In this document: one piece after another, positions 18,720-64,000 of the stretch
Numbering within the stretch: the stretch's first letter is position 1
Layout: each line of letters opens with the position of its first letter
NCBI GenBank assembly: GCA_009784185.1
Contig: WRCD01000001.1
Span: forward strand, 129,698-193,697
Direction of reading: 5' to 3'
Length of the DNA stretch: 64,000 nucleotides
DNA from: Bacillota bacterium
GTDB taxonomy: Bacteria > Bacillota > Clostridia > Christensenellales > UBA1242
The notes under the pieces: model-generated
What the model was told of the DNA's origin: nothing
The model's input: the letters and a program-made list of their open reading frames with translations, nothing else
Databases searched by the model: none
Made by a program: the position numbers and the translations under genes

Positions 18720-19327
18720 TTTTGGACAGCGAGCTTTTAAAGCGGGCCGCAAGCGGTGAAACCGATTGTTTGGAGCAGCTTTTGGAGCGCTACAAAGCGC
18801 TTACGTCTGGAATAGCGCGAGGGTACTTCTTAATAGGCGGAGACACAGACGACCTGATTCAGGAAGGCATGATTGGGCTGTACAAGGCTATACTTGGTTA
18901 CAAAGAAGGAAACGACACAACCTTTAAAACGTTTGCAGCGCTTTGTGTGCGCAGGCAGATACAAACTGCTATTAAGCAGGATGGGCGGCTTAAAAACCGG
19001 CCGCTTAACAACAGTGTTGGGCTTAACGGTCAGGGCATGCTTATTGTTCCTAACCCGGAGTCTGAATCGGATGAAGACGAAGATGTTGGTGTATATGTTG
19101 TAAGCAGTGAGCTTACGCCTGAGCAGCTGCTGCTTAACAGGGAACAGTTAAAAGATGTTACGTGCCAGATACATAAATCTTTAAGCGATTATGAATACAG
19201 GGTGCTGGCATTATATGTAAAGGGATTAAACTACACCCAGATTGCGGAAAAAACCAACAGCAATATTAAAGCTATAGATAACGCACTAAGCAGGATAAAA
19301 ACCAAACTCAGCTATTTAGCGGTTTAG
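18716..19327 (+). CDS. sigH: RNA polymerase sigma factor, SigH-like
   Basis: Region 2 DLIQEGMIGLYKAILGY...FKTFAALCVRRQIQTAIK closely matches the SigH pattern. There is a C-terminal HTH (YTQIAEKTNSNIKAIDNALSRIK). Synteny with mrnC-rlmB supports the call. Confidence 0.8.
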   Translation: MILDSELLKRAASGETDCLEQLLERYKALTSGIARGYFLIGGDTDDLIQEGMIGLYKAILGYKEGNDTTFKTFAALCVRRQIQTAIKQDGRLKNRPLNNSVGLNGQGMLIVPNPESESDEDEDVGVYVVSSELTPEQLLLNREQLKDVTCQIHKSLSDYEYRVLALYVKGLNYTQIAEKTNSNIKAIDNALSRIKTKLSYLAV

Positions 19328-19481
19328 TAATTTGTGATGCTACGGCGCTGGCTTCGCTGCTCTGCAGCTGCAGAGGCGCTCTCCGCAATCACAAATTACT
19401 AAACTTGGCGGATTGTAAAGCTACGGCGCTGGCTTCGCCACTAAAGTGGCTGCAGAGGCGCTCTTAGCACTTACAATCCGC
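19326..19481. repeat. Two tandem ~75-nt long hairpins with conserved cores and covarying outer stems
   Basis: Unit 1 (19326-19400) has the stem AGTAATTTGTGAT/ATCACAAATTACT. Unit 2 (19408-19481) has the stem GGCGGATTGTAAA/CTTACAATCCGCC. Both enclose the identical core flanks GCTACGGCGCTGGCTTCGC and CTGCAGAGGCGCTCT. Confidence 0.8.
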
Positions 19482-19508
19482 CATAAATCAATCGTTAAGG
19501 AGGATGCA

Positions 19509-21083
19509 ATGTATTTAGCATTATACCGTAAATACCGGCCGGAGGTCTTTGAGGATTTAATCGGGCAGGAGCATATTACAAAAACGCTGGTTAATCAAAT
19601 AGCCATGGGTCAGGTCGGGCACGCCTATTTGTTTTGCGGAAGCCGCGGTACCGGCAAAACTACGGCAGCAAAGGTGTTTAGCAGGGCAATTAACTGCCAG
19701 AGCCCAAAATCGGGCAGCCCTTGCGGCAAATGTGCGGCGTGCAAAGCTTTAAGTGACCCGAGCAACATGGACATTATTGAGATTGACGCTGCCAGCAACA
19801 ACAGGGTAGACGAGGTGCGGGATATCCGCGAAAAGGCTAAATATCCTCCGGTGTCCGGAAAGTACAAGGTGTATATTATAGACGAAGTGCATATGCTTAC
19901 CGAAAGCGCTTTTAATGCTTTGCTTAAAACGCTGGAAGAGCCTCCAAAGCATGCTGTGTTTATTTTGGCAACAACCGAAGCACATAAGCTGCCGTCCACA
20001 ATTTTAAGCAGAGTGCTCAGGTTTGATTTTAAGCTGCTGGCGCGCACAGATATTGAAAAGCTGCTTAAAAAAGTGTTTAAGTCTGCGGGCATAACCTGTG
20101 ACGAGGCGGCGCTTAGTGCAATAGCTGTTGCTGGCGAAGGCTCGGTACGGGATGCGCTGTCTGTAGCCGATATGGTGGCCGCCTATAGCAACAACAACAT
20201 TACTTACAATGCCGTGCTGGAGGTGCTTGGCTCAGGCGACAAAAACACGATAATTGATATCAGCCGTGCAATTTTAGGCGGGAATGTAGCCGGCTTTGTA
20301 GACTTAGTTAATGTTTATAATTCCGCAGGCAGAAATCTGCAGGCACTGGTTAAGGACCTGACGGCACATTTTTATCAGCTGATTATGATAAAAACCTTGC
20401 CGGAAGCTAACAAAACATTGCTGCTGCCTAAAGAGGTTTTTGTGGAAATGCAGAAAGATTGTGCAGCGGATGCGGCATTGCTTAATGAGTGTATGCAGAC
20501 ATTTAATAAAGCCGGGCTGGAACTGAAGTTTGCGCCGGACCCGCTGCTTTGTTTAACTGCCGCAGGGCTGGGAATTATGCTTGGCGGCGATAAAAAAAAA
20601 CGGGTGATTGATAATTCCCCTCTTGAGAGGGGTGTCGGCAAAGCCGACGGGGTGTGTTTAAACAAAGTTTCTGCGCCGCCTTTGGCGGCGACTACCCCGT
20701 CTGCTTCGCTTTGCTCGCATCCACCCCTTCGCGAGCAAAGGGGAATTGGTTTGGCGGAGGCCAATGGTGACGCTCGCAAGATTTGGGGGCAGGTGTTGCA
20801 GGAGCTGGACAAAAAGCAATGTATGCTGCTTTACCCCATTTGCGGAAAGATTAGTAACGTGTATATAAACGGCAATAATTTTGTTGTTGCAGCAGGAAGC
20901 GCTGCCGAGCAGAAACTGCTAAAAAAAGAGCAAAACTACAACGATTTGGTAGCAGCTTTTGCCGGAATCGGATATAATTACAATATCGTGATTGAAGTTG
21001 GGCTAAATATAAAGACTCAAACCAAAAACACCGAAGACATATTAAAAGAAAAGTTAGGCGATATATTAAAAATAAAGGAGTAA
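19509..21083 (+). CDS. dnaX: DNA polymerase III subunit gamma/tau
   Basis: Start is MYLALYRKYRPEVFEDLIGQEH, with an AAGGAGGA SD. Walker A GSRGTGKTT, zinc module CGKCAAC, DEVHML and SRV motifs are present. The ORF-track start at 19446 is an unsupported extension. Confidence 0.92.
   Translation: MYLALYRKYRPEVFEDLIGQEHITKTLVNQIAMGQVGHAYLFCGSRGTGKTTAAKVFSRAINCQSPKSGSPCGKCAACKALSDPSNMDIIEIDAASNNRVDEVRDIREKAKYPPVSGKYKVYIIDEVHMLTESAFNALLKTLEEPPKHAVFILATTEAHKLPSTILSRVLRFDFKLLARTDIEKLLKKVFKSAGITCDEAALSAIAVAGEGSVRDALSVADMVAAYSNNNITYNAVLEVLGSGDKNTIIDISRAILGGNVAGFVDLVNVYNSAGRNLQALVKDLTAHFYQLIMIKTLPEANKTLLLPKEVFVEMQKDCAADAALLNECMQTFNKAGLELKFAPDPLLCLTAAGLGIMLGGDKKKRVIDNSPLERGVGKADGVCLNKVSAPPLAATTPSASLCSHPPLREQRGIGLAEANGDARKIWGQVLQELDKKQCMLLYPICGKISNVYINGNNFVVAAGSAAEQKLLKKEQNYNDLVAAFAGIGYNYNIVIEVGLNIKTQTKNTEDILKEKLGDILKIKE
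20613..20747. repeat. GGGGAATT-family repeat, inverted pair, embedded in-frame in dnaX
   Basis: AATTCCCCTCttgaGAGGGGT-GTCGGCaaaGCCGAC-GGGGTGTG ... CCCCGTC...CCACCCCTTcgcgagcaAAGGGGAATT. The architecture matches the intergenic copies. Confidence 0.8.
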
Positions 21084-22060: not shown

Positions 22061-22091
22061 TTGACAAATGCGTAGGGGGGGGGGCTATAAT
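22061..22091 (+). promoter_or_regulatory. Sigma-70-type promoter with a G10 tract in a 19-bp spacer
   Basis: TTGACA (22061-22066), 19 bp containing G10 (22075-22084), then TATAAT (22086-22091). An AAAGGAGA SD and the ATG at 22122 follow. Confidence 0.7.
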
Positions 22092-23402: not shown

Positions 23403-23528
23403 AAAATTCCCCTCTATAAGAGGGGTGGCAATCACGAAGTGATTGACGGGGTGTGGATAACGAAAAGTCTGTATGACAACCACACCCCGCCTCGCAGGCT
23501 CGGCACCCCTCTTATAGAGGGGAATTTT
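23403..23528. repeat. GGGGAATT-family repeat, complete inverted pair
   Basis: AAAATTCCCCTCTataAGAGGGGT-GCAATCACgaaGTGATTGAC-GGGGTGTGG ... CCACACCCC-GCCTCGcagGCTCGGC-ACCCCTCTtatAGAGGGGAATTTT. Confidence 0.9.
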
Positions 23529-23580: not shown

Positions 23581-23611
23581 TTGACAAGTTCGGGGGGGGG
23601 GGCGCTATAAT
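23581..23611 (+). promoter_or_regulatory. Sigma-70-type promoter with a G11 tract in a 19-bp spacer (duplicate of the 22061 module)
   Basis: TTGACA (23581-23586), 19 bp containing G11 (23592-23602), then TATAAT (23606-23611). About 40 bp upstream and the 5'UTR are near-identical to the 22028-22124 module. Confidence 0.7.
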
Positions 23612-23641
23612 GGATGTATAAACCAAAAGGAGAAAAATAAA

Positions 23642-25195: not shown

Positions 25196-25242
25196 AATTC
25201 CCCTCTATAAGAGGGGTGCCGAGTTTACGAGGCGGGGTGTGG
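25196..25242. repeat. GGGGAATT-family repeat, single unit (opposite orientation)
   Basis: AATTCCCCTCTataAGAGGGGT-GCCGAGtttaCGAGGC-GGGGTGTGG, between divergent genes. Confidence 0.85.
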
Positions 25243-27978: not shown

Positions 27979-28028
27979 CACATACCCCGTCGGCTTCGCC
28001 GCCACCCCTTTATCTTAAAGGGGAATTT
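27979..28028. repeat. GGGGAATT-family repeat, single unit
   Basis: CACATACCCC-[GTCGGC-ttc-GCCGCC]-A-[CCCCTTT-atctt-AAAGGGG]-AATTT. The hairpin B stem carries compensatory changes. Confidence 0.8.
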
Positions 28029-28058: not shown

Positions 28059-29405
28059 TTGTACTTTAAAGGTTACGCTTTTTTGTTTAGTTTAGTTGTG
28101 CTCGTATTGTTTACGGGTTTTTCAGGCTTTAGTTCGGTTGGGGCAAGCAACGAGCCGCATGAGGATTTTGTTTTAAGATACGACGGCAAAAAGCATATAT
28201 ACGATGTAGCTAAAAACGAGCCCAAGAGCAGCATCCATACCATTGAGCACCGGTATCAGAGGTTTGGCAAAAAAGGAACTCCTGCCGAGCGTGCGGAACT
28301 GCTGGGGAGGGTAATGGAACTGGGATTCGGCTATGAAGAGGCATTTAAATATGTATTTAAAAACTTTGATGTATTTGTTGCGGGGGTAATTAAAGGCGTT
28401 AGCCGCCCAAGCAAGGACTCTAAGATTTCTTTCTATCCCAACAGGAGCGATATGTTTGATATATCCCGGGAGCAGGTTGGTTTTGTGGTAAACAAGGAGC
28501 AGCTTTACAAAAAAATGTACATAGAATACTGTAAGACCGGCAAAATTGATATAGAAATTATTCCGCAAGTATTGGAGCCGCGGTACACATATGACGAGCT
28601 GAGTGCGGTAGACAACCTAAAGGCAAAGTTTGGCACATATTACGGAAGCAGCGGAGCGGACAGGCGGCACAACATTAACCTGGCTCTCAGGCAGCTTAAC
28701 GGTATGCGGATAGAGCCGAATGAAGAATACTCATTTAACAAAATCACCGGCAGACGGACAGAAGCCAACGGATACAGAAAAGCAAATATAATTATCAACG
28801 ACGAATATGTAGAAGGGTACGGCGGCGGGGTTTGCCAGGTGAGCACTACCCTATATAACGCATTGCTTCTTTCAGGCGCAGATATAACCGAGGTAAGGCG
28901 GCATTCGTTGCCCAGCAGTTATGTAGCGCTTGGGTTTGATGCAATGGTATCTCACGGCACAAGTGACCTTAAGTTTATAAACCGCAGCAGCCTGCCTATG
29001 TTTATAAAAGCATACAGCACTCAAAACAATATCTACATTGAAGTATACGGCGCTTCAAGCGAACCTGATTTTAAAATTAAACGCATTACCGAGATAATAA
29101 GAAAAATATCTCCTGCGCCGAGTAAAACCATTATTGATACAGCCGGAGAACATTCTGGCCTTGTAAACTATACAGACGAAACAGCAGTGCTGCATTACGC
29201 AAAGGACGGATATGAGGTAAACGCGTATCTGGAGTATTACATTGGCAGTACAATGGTAGGCAGAAAATTAATCCGGCATGAAACATACAAGCCGCAGCAA
29301 GGAGTGTACGTGCGCGGGGCTAAGAAGCGTCCTTTGCCACCACTGGAATCGGAGCCGCTAACTCAAATAATTCCCCTCTTAGAAAGAGGGGTGGCAGGCG
29401 TTTAG
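28059..29405 (+). CDS. VanW family protein
   Basis: N-terminal signal/TM and the VanW core (EPNEEYSFNKITGRRT...GYGGGVCQVSTTLYNA). The last ~12 codons (IIPLLERGVAGV) are encoded by a repeat element. Confidence 0.85.
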   Translation: MYFKGYAFLFSLVVLVLFTGFSGFSSVGASNEPHEDFVLRYDGKKHIYDVAKNEPKSSIHTIEHRYQRFGKKGTPAERAELLGRVMELGFGYEEAFKYVFKNFDVFVAGVIKGVSRPSKDSKISFYPNRSDMFDISREQVGFVVNKEQLYKKMYIEYCKTGKIDIEIIPQVLEPRYTYDELSAVDNLKAKFGTYYGSSGADRRHNINLALRQLNGMRIEPNEEYSFNKITGRRTEANGYRKANIIINDEYVEGYGGGVCQVSTTLYNALLLSGADITEVRRHSLPSSYVALGFDAMVSHGTSDLKFINRSSLPMFIKAYSTQNNIYIEVYGASSEPDFKIKRITEIIRKISPAPSKTIIDTAGEHSGLVNYTDETAVLHYAKDGYEVNAYLEYYIGSTMVGRKLIRHETYKPQQGVYVRGAKKRPLPPLESEPLTQIIPLLERGVAGV

Positions 29406-29512
29406 CCTCGCCGGGGTGTATGATTAATAACTATATACGCCTTCGGCGGCTACCCTGTCTGACTTCGCCACGAATGGCTCGTCATCCACCCCTTCGGAGA
29501 AGGGGAATTTTT
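29369..29512. repeat. GGGGAATT-family repeat, inverted pair overlapping the vanW 3' end
   Basis: AATTCCCCTCTtagaaAGAGGGGT-GGCAGGCgtttaGCCTCGCC-GGGGTGTA ... ACCCTGTC...CCACCCCTTCggaGAAGGGGAATTTTT. Confidence 0.8.
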
Positions 29513-29839: not shown

Positions 29840-29968
29840 AATTCCCCTCTATAAGAGGGGTGCCGAGCTTGCGAGGCGGGGTGTGGAAAACACTATAGCT
29901 AGTTTTATCTCCACACCCCGTCTGTCTGCGTTATCGCTTGACATCCACCCCTCTTGTAGAGGGGAATC
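29840..29968. repeat. GGGGAATT-family repeat, inverted pair
   Basis: AATTCCCCTCTataAGAGGGGT-GCCGAGcttgCGAGGC-GGGGTGTGG ... CCACACCCCGTC...CCACCCCTCTtgtAGAGGGGAATC. Confidence 0.85.
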
Positions 29969-32654: not shown

Positions 32655-32761
32655 AATTCCCCTCTAGAGAGGGGTGGCACGGAGTGCCTGGGTGTGTTAT
32701 GTGTGCTTTTCACATACCCCGCCTCGCAAGCTCGGCACCCACAATATCCTAAAGGGGAATA
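32655..32761. repeat. GGGGAATT-family repeat, inverted pair (right half degenerate)
   Basis: AATTCCCCTCTagAGAGGGGT-GGCACGGagTGCCTGG-GTGTGTT ... CACATACCCC-GCCTCGcaaGCTCGGC-ACCC...AAAGGGGAAT. Confidence 0.8.
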
Positions 32762-32781
32762 TAATTGAGGAGATAGTGTAA

Positions 32782-40714: not shown

Positions 40715-40745
40715 TTGACTTTTTGGCAGGGGGGGGGGGTATACT
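40715..40745 (+). promoter_or_regulatory. Sigma-70-type promoter with a G11 tract in a 19-bp spacer
   Basis: TTGACT (40715-40720), 19 bp containing G11 (40729-40739), then TATACT (40740-40745). The methyltransferase start lies 18-24 nt downstream. Confidence 0.65.
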
Positions 40746-47705: not shown

Positions 47706-48791
47706 ATGATGGCGAATGAGAAAATAGAACACACCCCGCCTTCGGCACCCCTCTCAAGAGGGGAATTATTGGCAGGAACGGGTAATGACAGGGTGGGAAT
47801 AAAGCAAAGGATTGTTACGTGCGTGCTGGTGCCGGTTATGGTGCTTGCGCTTGTGCTTGCAGTTTTTGGTGCGTATCTGCTTGCTCCGCTAAAGGGCGAG
47901 GTGCGTGGGTATTACTGGAATGAATTCACGCCGTTTAGTTTAGCACACGGGCAGAGCATAGATGTTGGCGGCGAGGACTACAACATATTGCTGCTTACCG
48001 ATTTTCATTATCCGCTGTCGGGTGCTAAAACAGATGCGCTTATAAAAACAATGGTGGAAGAGAATAATCCGGACCTGATTGTGCTGGTGGGGGACCAGGT
48101 TTTTAGTCCGTTTAACCATTTCAGTTACCGGCATTTAATCAACCTTTTTGATTCGTTTAAAGTGCCTTGGGCACCGGTGTTTGGCAACCATGACGAAGAA
48201 GGCAAGGCAGATAAGCAATACTTAGCCAATATGCTTGAAGAAAGCGAGTACTGTATGTTTCAGTACGGCCCCAGAATTACAGGTGCCGGCAATTATTTTA
48301 TAAACCTGACTAACGGAGCAGATATTATTTACACCTTGTTCTTTTTAGATTCGTTCAGTTCGTTTTGGGAAAGCGGATACAGGCCATATACTGCCGACCA
48401 GGTAAGCTGGCTGAAATGGGCTGCTAGCGGGATAGCAGCGGAAGCAGGCAAAAAGGTGCCGTCGGTTGTGTATGGGCATATACCTGTGCCGGAGTTTACT
48501 CCTGCTTTTAATGAAGCGTTTGCCTCGGGCACAGTTATTCACGGGCAGCAGCTTGAGCCAAACGGACACAGCAATATTAACAACGGCTTGTTTGCCGCCA
48601 TAAAAGATATAGGTGCCGAGTATATGTTTTGCGGGCATGAGCACGTAAACGATTTTATGGTAGAGTATCAGGGCGTTAAGCTGGCTTATGTATTATCCGG
48701 CGGGGTGGGCGGCTACGGCAACATCTTGGGCGGAACGATGTTTACCGTAAAGCCGGATGCAAGCACAACAGTGGTTAACAAACCGTATTAA
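47706..48791 (+). CDS. Calcineurin-like metallophosphoesterase with an N-terminal TM anchor
   Basis: Motifs DFHY, GDQV, GNHDEEG, GHIP and GHEH. A GGGGA SD lies 9 nt before the ATG. Codons ~9-22 derive from a repeat unit. Confidence 0.8.
   Translation: MMANEKIEHTPPSAPLSRGELLAGTGNDRVGIKQRIVTCVLVPVMVLALVLAVFGAYLLAPLKGEVRGYYWNEFTPFSLAHGQSIDVGGEDYNILLLTDFHYPLSGAKTDALIKTMVEENNPDLIVLVGDQVFSPFNHFSYRHLINLFDSFKVPWAPVFGNHDEEGKADKQYLANMLEESEYCMFQYGPRITGAGNYFINLTNGADIIYTLFFLDSFSSFWESGYRPYTADQVSWLKWAASGIAAEAGKKVPSVVYGHIPVPEFTPAFNEAFASGTVIHGQQLEPNGHSNINNGLFAAIKDIGAEYMFCGHEHVNDFMVEYQGVKLAYVLSGGVGGYGNILGGTMFTVKPDASTTVVNKPY
47729..47768. repeat. GGGGAATT-family repeat, single unit inside the 5' end of a CDS
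   Basis: ACACACCCC-[GCC-ttc-GGC]-A-[CCCCTCT-ca-AGAGGGG]-AATTATT. Confidence 0.8.
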
Positions 48792-48887
48792 TTCCCCCTT
48801 TAGCAAAGGGGTGCCGGCTGAGCGAACGGGGTTCCACCATAATTCCCCTCTAGAGAGGGGTGTCGGGCGAAGCCTGACGGGGTGTGT
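48790..48887. repeat. GGGGAATT-family repeat, two tandem same-orientation units
   Basis: AATTCCCCCTTTagcAAAGGGGT-GCCGGCtgagcgaAC-GGGGTTCC, then AATTCCCCTCTagAGAGGGGT-GTCGGGCgaaGCCTGAC-GGGGTGTG. The first unit starts in the stop codon at 48789-48791. Confidence 0.85.
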
Positions 48888-48899
48888 TTGCGTTAAAGT

Positions 48900-49054: not shown

Positions 49055-49106
49055 CACAACCCCCGTCGGCTCCGCCGACACCCCCTTGGCTCAAGGGGGA
49101 ATTTTA
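49055..49106. repeat. GGGGAATT-family repeat, single unit
   Basis: CACAACCCCC-[GTCGGC-tcc-GCCGAC]-A-[CCCCCTTG-gct-CAAGGGGG]-AATTTTATTT. Confidence 0.85.
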
Positions 49107-63198: not shown

Positions 63199-64000
63199 AT
63201 GGCTAAAGCTAAATTTGAAAGAAACAAACCACACTTTAACCTTGGTACTATCGGACACGTAGACCACGGTAAAACCACCCTTACAGCTGCTATTACAAGC
63301 ACGCTTGCTAAAAAGGGCTGGGCACAGGCGCGAGACTATGCGTCTATTGACAACACCCCTGAAGAAAAGGCAAGGGGAATTACTATTAACACAAGTCACG
63401 TAGAATACGAAAGTGCTAAGAGGCACTACGCACACGTAGACTGCCCCGGACACGCCGACTATGTTAAAAACATGATTACAGGCGCTGCTCAAATGGACGG
63501 AGCTATTCTTGTAGTATCCGCTACAGACGGACTTATGCCGCAGACTCGTGAGCACATCCTGCTTGCGCGTCAGGTTGGCGTACCGTATATTGTTGTATTT
63601 ATGAACAAGGTTGACCAGCTGCCGGCTGAAGACAAAGACCTTATGACAGAAATGGTAGAAGAAGAAATCCGCGGATTGCTTAATGAATACAAGTTCCCCG
63701 GTGACAAGACTCCTATTATTAAGGGTTCTGCGCTTAAAGCGCTTGAAGCTGCTACCAAGGGCGACATTGACGGCCCGGACAGCAAGCCGATTTTTGAGCT
63801 TGTAGAAGCTATTGACAGCTACTTCCCGGACCCGGTGCGTGCTATCGACAAGCCGTTCCTGATGCCGGTTGAAGACGTGTTTACCATTACCGGAAGAGGC
63901 ACAGTTGCTACAGGACGTGTTGAGCGTGGTGTAGTTAAAGTGGGCGACACAATTGAAATGGTTGGTATGGGAGCTACTAAGGCAACCGTAGTTACCGGCG
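63199..64000 (+). CDS. tuf: Elongation factor Tu, 3'-truncated by the window end
   Basis: Absent from the ORF track because there is no stop in the window. It translates as [33 protein letters not shown]...[26 protein letters not shown]...NKVD, with an AAGGAGA SD. Confidence 0.97.

What the first reader, a model, noticed from the sequence alone, without database searches (positions are those of the whole stretch)
20589..20650. A9 slippery run at the gamma/tau boundary of dnaX with immediate stops in both alternative frames and a downstream hairpin
Codons 362-364 of dnaX are AAA AAA AAA (A9, 20592-20600), directly after domain III. A -1 shift, or one extra A in the mRNA, reads ACG GGT GAT TGA, with the stop at 20609-20611. 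A +1 shift, or one A fewer, reads GGG TGA, with the stop at 20605-20607. Either event would yield a gamma-like product of about 365-368 residues. E. coli makes gamma by -1 frameshifting at A AAA AAG with a downstream stem-loop. Thermus thermophilus does it by transcriptional slippage on an A-run. Here strong hairpins (CCCCTC-ttga-GAGGGG, then GTCGGC-aaa-GCCGAC) begin 17 nt downstream of the run and are supplied by the inserted repeat. Bacillota are generally thought to make only tau, so a recoding site here would be noteworthy.
Basis: partly seen in the sequence, partly recalled or inferred. Interest (0 to 1): 0.62.

Follow-up and report, generated by a model that had tools for sequence, protein, structure and literature searches.

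The report
Conserved slippery A-run in clostridial dnaX
A run of nine A's just after the clamp-loader core of the replication gene dnaX is conserved across many uncultured gut Clostridia, so these Gram-positive bacteria probably make a short "gamma" protein as well as full-length "tau", as Thermus does; the hairpin downstream appears to be an unrelated repeat insertion.

Summary
dnaX is 19509-21083. A9 (20592-20600) forms codons 362-364, about 10 residues after domain III. TGA stops lie 1 and 2 sense codons away in the +1 and -1 frames.

Comparative data support a real recoding site:
- Thirteen divergent Clostridia lineages, including the three closest (61-64% aa identity), carry A9 or A10 at this boundary, in all three codon phases.
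- In eight lineages tau is in frame 0 and both other frames stop nearby.
- In five lineages frame 0 stops directly after the run, and a conserved tau C-terminus (pN/pS about 0.3) follows in the -1 frame. One such arrangement was recovered on at least six independent contigs.
- 32 of the 120 best protein clusters show the signature.

This matches Thermus thermophilus dnaX (RNA-polymerase slippage on A9) and the two-ORF dnaX genes of Chlorobi and Bacteroidetes. I found no report of it in Bacillota, which are described as tau-only.

The hairpins belong to a 135-nt palindromic repeat inserted in frame (19 terminal-hairpin modules in the window). They are absent from relatives and start 16 nt after the run, so they are probably irrelevant.

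No RNA or protein data exist for this termite-gut organism. Expression is inferred. Verdict: new member of a known kind, moderately interesting.

The parts
19509..21083 (+). dnaX, full-length tau reading frame (524 aa plus stop)
   Evidence: ORF list. Pfam DNA_pol3_delta2, AAA, DNAX_ATPase_lid and DNA_pol3_gamma3. NCBIfam PRK05563 'DNA polymerase III subunit gamma/tau', 480 bits against a cut-off of 400. Synteny SpoU-sigma-dnaX-ybaB-recR is shared with relatives.
19509..20561 (+). Domains I-III (clamp-loader core, the part shared by gamma and tau)
   Evidence: dnaX_nterm matches residues 2-351 and Pfam domain III matches 232-349. The E. coli gamma chains in PDB entries 1JR3/1XXH are 373 residues long, about the same as the predicted short product.
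20592..20600 (+). A9 slippery run (codons 362-364, AAA AAA AAA)
   Evidence: A9 or A10 sits at the homologous place in L081, L082, L083, L094, L003, L059, L092/93, L004, L006, L084-89, L090/91 and L178.
20605..20607 (+). TGA stop in the +1 frame (read by mRNAs with A8 or A11); products end KKNG or KKKNG (365-366 aa)
   Evidence: Lies outside and upstream of the repeat insertion.
20609..20611 (+). TGA stop in the -1 frame (read by mRNAs with A10 or A7, or after -1 ribosomal frameshifting); product ends KKKTGD (367 aa)
   Evidence: Lies outside and upstream of the repeat insertion.
20601..21080 (+). tau-only part: linker plus C-terminal domain (160 aa)
   Evidence: The C-terminal 75 aa align with relatives (…QEQKLLKKEQN…LGY.Y…KLKEKFGSILK).
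20613..20747 (+). 135-nt palindromic MITE/REP-like repeat unit inserted in frame (45 codons) in the tau linker; not part of the recoding signal
   Evidence: Matches other copies at 48839-48889, 47746-47769, 27984-28009 and 32655-32762. 19 terminal-hairpin modules in the window against 0.03 in shuffles. Boundaries AATTCCCC…GGGGAATT come from alignment A1. Word depth is about 3-80x over the single-copy flank in termite-gut runs. Absent from L081-L083.
20617..20649 (+).
   Evidence: Local fold. In a longer fold the whole repeat pairs with itself (-70 kcal/mol). The first stem base is 16 nt after the last A of the run.

Best explanation
The A9 run is a conserved, programmed recoding site of the Thermus thermophilus dnaX type.

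Proposed mechanism. RNA polymerase transcribing the nine-T template realigns the nascent RNA within its 9-10 bp hybrid. It produces a mixture of mRNAs with A9 plus, in diminishing amounts, A10, A11 and so on.
- A9 (and A12) mRNAs give full-length tau (524-525 aa).
- A10 mRNAs terminate at TGA 20609-11.
- A8 and A11 mRNAs terminate at TGA 20605-07.

The truncated products are gamma-like proteins of 365-367 aa. They comprise exactly domains I-III and lack the linker and the C-terminal polymerase-binding part.

Status of each step:
- Shown: the sequence anatomy, the conservation, and the existence of relatives that cannot make tau without a frame change.
- Inferred: that the frame change is mainly transcriptional, that it happens in this organism, and that the short product is used.

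The downstream hairpins are a by-product of a palindromic repeat inserted in frame into the disordered tau linker. They play no role.
For: 1) Anatomy matches Thermus. A9 lies after domain III, tau is a single ORF, and stops follow within 1-2 sense codons in both other frames.

2) Conservation is at the nucleotide level. A9 or A10 sits at the same boundary in 13 lineages at 45-64% aa identity, in codon phases 0, 1 and 2. All Lys codons are AAA, although AAA is only 50-63% of Lys codons in the window and L082.

3) The register varies. Eight lineages have tau in frame 0. Five lineages (L004, L006, L084-89, L090/91, L178) stop in frame 0 right after the run (…AAC TGA/TAA) and carry the tau C-terminus in the -1 frame. 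The L084-type arrangement recurs on at least six contigs from independent samples.

4) The -1-frame part is under purifying selection, with pN/pS 0.28 at saturated pS (L090 vs L092) and 0.35-0.46 within L084-87. Efficient frame change at this run must therefore occur in this clade.

5) Tau is always reached by one extra A, never by one fewer. This matches the insertion bias of RNA-polymerase slippage.

6) In tau-in-frame lineages both alternative frames stop nearby. Per-gene fractions are 0.008-0.39 and the combined p is about 1e-5.

7) No conserved 3' or 5' RNA structure accompanies the A9/A10 sites. A neighbouring clade with only A6 has a heptamer plus a covarying stem-loop. That contrast is what one expects between polymerase slippage and ribosomal frameshifting.

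8) 32 of the 120 best DnaX clusters carry the signature, including the seven nearest by N-terminal identity.
Against: There is no RNA or protein evidence for this organism. No RNA runs exist and only assembled contigs were available.

RNA-derived contigs of the relative Ca. Caccovivens show A9 where its MAG has A10. They share SNPs with runs of unknown type, so this probably reflects a strain difference rather than mRNA heterogeneity.

The run also contains a -1 heptamer (A_AAA_AAA), and all two-ORF relatives need a -1 shift, so ribosomal frameshifting cannot be excluded.

Some sublineages have lost the run (P0012, P0017, P0018, P0022), so gamma is dispensable at least there.

All members are MAGs or metagenome contigs, and homopolymer lengths in such assemblies carry some error risk.
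Confidence: 0.6

Rival explanations
1. Ribosomal -1 frameshifting. Ribosomes slip on A_AAA_AAA (codons 363-364) and terminate at TGA 20609-11. The repeat-derived hairpins might help.
For: A canonical X_XXY_YYZ heptamer is present. All two-ORF relatives need exactly a -1 shift and end A_AAA_AAC plus a stop. A_AAA_AAC and A_AAA_AAA rank among enriched -1 heptamers (Table S1). A neighbouring Clostridia clade clearly uses A_AAA_AAC plus a 7-nt spacer plus a covarying stem. Stable hairpins follow the run in the window.
Against: - The run is kept at 9-10 nt, not 6-7.
- The nearby +1-frame stop is also conserved, which only matters if both kinds of shifted message exist.
- No conserved stem or SD-like element occurs in 12 relatives.
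- The window hairpin starts 16 nt after the site, beyond the 5-9 and 12-15 nt classes, and belongs to a repeat present at 19 places.
- A_AAA_AAA is much less shift-prone than A_AAA_AAG in E. coli.
Confidence: 0.17
2. No programmed role in this organism. The run is an inherited Lys tract, and any slippage products are tolerated noise.
For: Tau is in frame, so nothing requires recoding here. Some related lineages lost the run. Model Bacillota make only tau.
Against: - AAA is conserved over AAG across lineages at 61-64% identity, within an otherwise unconserved linker.
- Stops in both frames are significantly near.
- Runs of 9 A's slip efficiently in the bacterial RNA polymerases tested, so a truncated domain I-III protein should be made in quantity. 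That would be selected against if harmful.
- Relatives depend on the site.
Confidence: 0.15
3. DNA-level hypermutable tract. The A-run changes length by replication slippage, switching the population between tau-in-frame and truncated alleles (phase variation).
For: Run length differs between related lineages (A9 vs A10: L090/91 vs L092/93) and apparently within Ca. Caccovivens faecavium. The same window has poly-G tracts in promoters that look phase-variable.
Against: dnaX is essential, so an off state would be lethal unless rescued by recoding, which returns to the main explanation. The two-ORF state is fixed and reproducible across at least six independent contigs. The only contig spanning the run in the source run has A9 with no indel.
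Confidence: 0.05
4. Assembly or sequencing artefact at a homopolymer.
For: The window and all relatives are metagenome assemblies.
Against: A9 is reproduced by an independent assembler on the source run. The same run appears in 13 lineages from different studies. In the window the frame is intact through the run.
Confidence: 0.03

Closest known systems
Thermus thermophilus dnaX (transcriptional slippage on A9; Larsen et al. 2000, as described in PMC1088944 and PMC5009743)
   Same: A9 in the sense strand after the clamp-loader core. Tau is a single ORF. Stops lie close by in both alternative frames, so any mRNA with a non-multiple-of-three change gives gamma. No dedicated RNA structure is required.
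   Different: A different phylum (Bacillota/Clostridia rather than Deinococcota). The base after the run is C, not G. The site lies about 10 residues after domain III, so gamma would be minimal (365-367 aa). No experimental evidence here.
Two-ORF dnaX genes with A7-A10 runs (Antonov et al. 2013, PMC3711429: Chlorobi, Bacteroidetes, Verrucomicrobia)
   Same: Relatives of the window gene (L004, L006, L084-91, L178) have exactly this layout: frame 0 stops right after the run and tau continues in the -1 frame.
   Different: The window gene itself has tau in frame 0. The motif is A9-10 C T(G/A)A rather than A10 G. The ten organisms shown in that paper's Supplementary Figure S3 include no Bacillota; the other fs-genes were not checked.
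E. coli dnaX -1 programmed ribosomal frameshift (A_AAA_AAG, upstream SD, stem-loop 6 nt downstream)
   Same: Same gene, same outcome (gamma plus tau), an A-rich slippery site, and a -1-frame stop soon after.
   Different: No SD-like element. No conserved stem. The window hairpin is 16 nt away and comes from a repeat. The run is longer than a heptamer. The +1-frame stop is also conserved.
Caulobacter crescentus DnaX (gamma made by ClpXP partial proteolysis)
   Same: Another route to a short DnaX.
   Different: Post-translational, with no nucleic-acid signal. Nothing here suggests it.

Membership tests
DnaX (clamp-loader tau/gamma subunit) | AAA+ module, lid and domain III with DnaX-specific profile scores above the curated cut-off | tested here: met
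   NCBIfam PRK05563 480.6 bits (cut-off 400) and TIGR02397 420 bits (cut-off 250). Pfam PF13177, PF22608 and PF12169. PDB E. coli gamma/tau E = 8e-74.
Thermus-type dnaX transcriptional-slippage site | Homopolymeric A run of about 9 in the sense strand, downstream of domain III | tested here: met
   A9 at 20592-20600, codons 362-364. Domain III ends at about residue 351.
Thermus-type dnaX transcriptional-slippage site | Tau encoded by one uninterrupted ORF through the run, with stops close by in both other frames | tested here: met
   Frame 0 continues for 160 aa. The +1 frame stops after 1 codon and the -1 frame after 2. Only 2.1% of positions in the gene do as well.
Thermus-type dnaX transcriptional-slippage site | Run conserved as nucleotides (not as amino acids) among relatives | tested here: met
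   A9/A10 in 13 lineages, in codon phases 0, 1 and 2, encoding KKK, xKKN or QKKT.
Thermus-type dnaX transcriptional-slippage site | mRNA population heterogeneous in run length while the DNA is homogeneous | tested here: inconclusive
   No RNA runs for the window or L006. For L003 only assembled contigs were available. RNA run X5 has A9 against the MAG's A10, but it shares SNPs with X13, a run of unknown type (and A9 plus one SNP with X14), so a strain difference is likely.
Thermus-type dnaX transcriptional-slippage site | Two protein products (tau and a C-terminally truncated gamma) in cells | not testable with these tools
   Uncultured termite-gut organism. No proteomics available.
E. coli-type dnaX -1 ribosomal frameshift cassette | X_XXY_YYZ heptamer in the zero frame | tested here: met
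   A_AAA_AAA over codons 363-364.
E. coli-type dnaX -1 ribosomal frameshift cassette | Stem-loop stimulator 5-9 nt 3' of the heptamer, conserved among relatives | tested here: not met
   The first stem base is 16 nt after the run. The stem belongs to a dispersed repeat. Twelve relatives show no conserved or significant structure (z -2.4 to +1.2, different shapes).
E. coli-type dnaX -1 ribosomal frameshift cassette | Shine-Dalgarno-like stimulator about 10 nt upstream | tested here: not met
   The upstream sequence is CTTGGCGGCGAT, with no GGAGG-type element. Nothing is conserved in the relatives' upstream 21 nt. Upstream folds are not significant.
Two-ORF dnaX (tau requires a frame change; Antonov 2013) | Zero-frame stop directly after the poly-A run, with the tau C-terminus in the -1 frame | tested here: not met
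   Not met by the window gene, where tau is in frame 0. Met by relatives L004, L006, L084-89, L090/91 and L178.
Phase-variable contingency locus (DNA slipped-strand mispairing) | Run-length polymorphism within a population switching a dispensable gene on and off | tested here: not met
   The one contig spanning the run in the source run has A9 and no indel. The gene is essential. Variation is seen between lineages and strains only.

The most novel reading that the evidence does not exclude
A large radiation of uncultured gut Clostridia (termite, chicken, other animal and human-associated MAGs) makes both gamma and tau from dnaX by slippage on a conserved A9/A10 run. The DNA register flips between species, and even between strains, so that tau is the standard product in some and the recoded product in others. 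A neighbouring clade does the same by stimulated -1 ribosomal frameshifting. This would overturn the textbook statement that Gram-positive bacteria have tau-only clamp loaders. It would also give a natural series for studying how the two recoding mechanisms interconvert.
Probability: 0.6. Interest if true: 0.65.

Novelty: new member of a known kind. Interest (0 to 1): 0.55.

Why it matters
Whether gamma has a function of its own, and why it arose by at least three different mechanisms, is still debated. The apparent absence of gamma from Gram-positives (B. subtilis, S. aureus, S. pyogenes) has been used to argue that it is dispensable or lineage-specific.

A conserved recoding site in Clostridia extends gamma production to Bacillota, which replicate with PolC and DnaE. 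Some members cannot make essential tau without it.

The finding also matters for annotation. 19 of the 120 best-matching protein clusters are truncated DnaX of about 365 aa. The one truncated cluster that carries a source name (P0074) is named plain 'DNA polymerase III subunit gamma/tau', and in the contigs examined the downstream ORF is called as a separate gene with no Pfam hit; the names of the other clusters and any recoding annotation were not checked.

The side-by-side A9/A10 and A6-plus-hairpin designs offer a natural comparison of transcriptional and translational recoding in related genomes.

Tried and rejected
- **RNA evidence.** There are no RNA runs for the window or L006. For L003 only assembled contigs exist. 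They show A9 against the MAG's A10, but probably as a strain allele. This is not usable as proof of mRNA heterogeneity.
- **Closer relatives.** The exact protein is not on record. The metagenome scan gave nothing closer than about 52% identity, and only one further run-bearing locus (L149, A10-G-TAG).
- **Hairpin as stimulator.** Rejected on three grounds: it originates from a repeat, it is not conserved, and its spacing is wrong.
- **Upstream nascent-RNA hairpin as a slippage stimulator.** Upstream folds are not better than shuffles and are not conserved.
- **Upstream SD-like element.** None found.
- **Known structured RNA.** Rfam finds only a tRNA in the window, nothing at dnaX or the repeat.
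- **Run created by the repeat insertion.** Rejected. The run and both stops lie upstream of the element boundary, and relatives without the element have the run.
- **Two-ORF relatives as assembly errors.** Rejected. At least six independent contigs agree, and the -1-frame ORF shows purifying selection.
Full report
**1. What is in the sequence**

The ORF 19509-21083 (+) encodes a 524-aa DnaX. It matches NCBIfam PRK05563 'DNA polymerase III subunit gamma/tau' at 480 bits (cut-off 400) and TIGR02397 dnaX_nterm over residues 2-351. Pfam finds DNA_pol3_delta2, the ATPase lid and domain III (residues 232-349). E. coli gamma/tau structures match at E = 8e-74.

The gene sits in the order SpoU methylase, sigma factor, dnaX, ybaB, recR. 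Relatives have the same order.

The stretch 20589-20611 reads GAT AAA AAA AAA CGG GTG ATT GA.
- A9 occupies 20592-20600 and forms codons 362-364.
- One extra A gives …KKKTGD, stopping at TGA 20609-11 (367 aa).
- One A fewer gives …KKNG, stopping at TGA 20605-07 (365 aa).

A9 is the only A-run of 9 or more in the 64 kb. Only 2.1% of codon positions in the gene have stops this close in both other frames. An independent Logan assembly of the source run, a termite gut metagenome, reproduces the stretch without indels.

**2. The hairpins and the 'inserted repeat'**

The two hairpins are predicted as described, at 20617-20632 and 20633-20649. They are the first module of a 135-nt palindromic unit at 20613-20747, with ends AATTCCCC…GGGGAATT.

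- The terminal hairpin of this unit occurs 19 times in the window, against 0.03 in shuffles.
- Full units also lie at about 23405-23526, 29369-29509, 29840-29968 and 32655-32762.
- The other modules are intergenic or lie within about 120 nt of an end of a long stop-to-stop reading frame; three fall wholly inside such a frame (25198-25218, 29371-29393, 63354-63379).
- The module's word depth is about 3-80 times that of the single-copy flank in the termite-gut runs.

In dnaX the unit is exactly 45 codons and is read through as part of the tau linker. The three closest relatives lack it. The A-run and both out-of-frame stops lie upstream of its boundary. The 'RVI' that follows KKK is shared with the relative P0007. 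The repeat therefore supplies the hairpins but not the recoding anatomy.

**3. Relatives**

The protein search returned two kinds of hit.
- Full-length DnaX with KKK about 22 residues after the KY..NP.LL.E motif: 13 clusters, including the seven nearest by N-terminal identity.
- 19 clusters of 363-369 aa that end …KKN or …KKH at exactly that place.

DNA was obtained for 13 lineages. All have A9 or A10 there, followed by C and, one to three bases later, TGA or TAA.

*Tau in frame 0.* These are the window, L081-83 (61-64% aa identity, A9, phase 0), L094, L003 (Ca. Caccovivens faecavium, Bacillota/Clostridia), L059 and L092/93. In these, both other frames stop within 0-6 codons. The Fisher combined p is about 1e-5, treating lineages as independent, which overstates the significance somewhat.

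*Two-ORF layout.* These are L004, L006, L084-89, L090/91 and L178. Frame 0 reads …AAA AAA AAC TGA/TAA, and a 113-139-aa ORF homologous to the tau C-terminus follows in the -1 frame. The L084-type layout was recovered on at least six contigs from independent samples and assemblers.

The -1-frame part evolves under purifying selection. pN/pS is 0.28 between L090 and L092 at saturated synonymous divergence, and 0.35-0.46 within L084-87.

The run occurs in all three codon phases (KKK; xxA-KK-N; QKKT). What is conserved is therefore the nucleotide run, not a lysine motif. AAA is only 63% of Lys codons in the window and about 50% in L082.

An NJ tree places the run-bearing proteins in several neighbouring clades. 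Register flips occur inside one clade (P0015 vs P0113; P0019 vs P0084). Some clades have lost the run (P0012/17/18/22 and others).

Among more distant relatives the feature is rare. It appears in 4 of 80 GTDB representatives and 1 of 80 metagenome loci.

**4. Mechanism**

Tau tethers the polymerase to the clamp loader and is essential (established knowledge of DnaX). Lineages in which tau lies across a frame change can therefore only live if that change happens efficiently at the run. The same run in the window gene should then also generate shifted messages or products.

Several points favour RNA-polymerase slippage over ribosomal frameshifting.
- The run is kept at 9-10 nt, the length of the RNA-DNA hybrid. 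This is the length at which bacterial polymerases slip with high efficiency in vivo. A heptamer would suffice for the ribosome.
- Stops are close in both alternative frames, as in Thermus.
- Tau in two-ORF forms is always one extra A away. This matches the reported bias towards added A's in diminishing proportion.
- No 3' or 5' structure or SD-like element is conserved.

A neighbouring clade of 388-aa DnaX proteins provides a useful contrast. It has only A6, within CTA AAA AAC GAA TAA. This is followed after 7 nt by an 8-bp stem (z = -4.1) that shows a compensatory G-C to A-U change in one member. Tau follows in the -1 frame. That is a classical stimulated -1 frameshift cassette. It shows what a ribosomal design looks like in these genomes.

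A ribosomal contribution at A_AAA_AAA or A_AAA_AAC cannot be excluded.

The window's hairpins start 16 nt after the run. This is beyond the common 5-9 nt class and the rarer 12-15 nt class. They are not yet transcribed when the polymerase is on the run. I consider them incidental.

**5. What could not be shown**

No RNA run holds this organism. For Ca. Caccovivens, contigs from a metatranscriptome (X5), one run labelled RNA-Seq of uncertain kind (X6) and two runs of unknown type (X13, X14) carry A9 where the MAG has A10. X5 and X13 share both SNPs that distinguish them from the MAG, and X14 shares one of them, so a strain with a templated A9 (two-ORF register) is the simplest reading. That adds a within-species register polymorphism. 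It does not demonstrate mRNA heterogeneity. No protein data exist.

**6. Comparison with what is known**

The anatomy equals T. thermophilus dnaX: A9, single tau ORF, stops in both frames, about 50% gamma.

The two-ORF relatives equal the class described by Antonov et al. 2013. That class comprises 17 genes in 12 genera. The ten organisms shown in their Supplementary Figure S3 are Thermus plus Chlorobi, Bacteroidetes and a verrucomicrobium, with no Bacillota.

Reviews and primary papers state that Gram-positive bacteria, or B. subtilis, S. aureus and S. pyogenes specifically, produce only tau. Searches for dnaX plus slippage plus Firmicutes or Clostridia found no report of such a site in Bacillota. 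The library searched is incomplete.

**7. Verdict**

- The interpretation as a recoding site is well supported by comparative evidence. It is most likely transcriptional.
- This is a new member, and a new phylum, of a known kind of recoding. It is not a new mechanism.
- Confidence in the full best explanation is 0.6. Confidence that some programmed frame change operates at this run in the clade is about 0.8.

Noticed in passing
window 22061-22091, 23583-23613, 40716-40745: Three poly-G tracts (G10, G11, G11) sit exactly in the spacer of sigma-70-type promoters: TTGACA-aatgcgta-G10-c-TATAAT, TTGACA-agttc-G11-cgc-TATAAT and TTGACT-ttttggca-G11-TATACT. Each spacer is 19 nt. The first two share a conserved upstream block. 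They look like phase-variable promoters switched by tract length.
   Followed up: partly
window 20613-20747 (also 23405-23526, 29369-29509, 29840-29968, 32655-32762, 47746-47769, 48792-48889, 49061-49101 and others): A dispersed GC-rich palindromic repeat family (AATTCCCCT..AGGGGTG..CGGGGTGTG) has 19 terminal modules in 64 kb, against 0.03 expected. It is highly multi-copy in termite-gut metagenomes. One 135-nt unit is inserted in frame (45 codons) in the linker of the essential gene dnaX. Rfam has no match.
   Followed up: partly
window 19322-19404 and 19406-19483: Two tandem copies of a different, roughly 80-nt palindromic element lie between the sigma-factor gene and dnaX. They have perfect 17-nt and 13-nt inverted termini and a shared core GCTACGGCGCTGGCTTCGC…GCTGCAGAGGCGCTCT.
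   Followed up: no
L175 3153-3192 (also L179 about 1183-1222, L181 about 2353-2392): A neighbouring Clostridia clade has 388-aa DnaX ending CTA AAA AAC GAA TAA: an A_AAA_AAC heptamer, a 7-nt spacer, then an 8-bp stem GGCAAAGC/GCTTTGCC (z -4.1). One member shows a compensatory G-C to A-U change. The tau C-terminus is in the -1 frame. This is an E. coli-like stimulated -1 frameshift cassette in which tau is the shifted product.
   Followed up: partly
L003 4083-4092: The Ca. Caccovivens faecavium MAG has A10 (tau in frame). Contigs from four chicken-gut runs, including a metatranscriptome, have A9 (two-ORF register). Two of them share two SNPs (4191 G>A, 4224 G>C) and a third shares one. This looks like a register polymorphism within a species.
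   Followed up: partly
proteins P0012, P0017, P0018, P0022: A sublineage nested among run-bearing DnaX proteins has the boundary sequence HKTKHED or NKNRQE in place of KKK. This suggests secondary loss of the slippery run.
   Followed up: no
L149 about 2640-2650: A metagenome contig of a distant DnaX relative carries A10-G-TAG-TTAAG at codon 380, with immediate stops in both other frames. This is the A10-G form seen in the Chlorobi/Bacteroidetes dnaX genes of Antonov et al. 2013.
   Followed up: no
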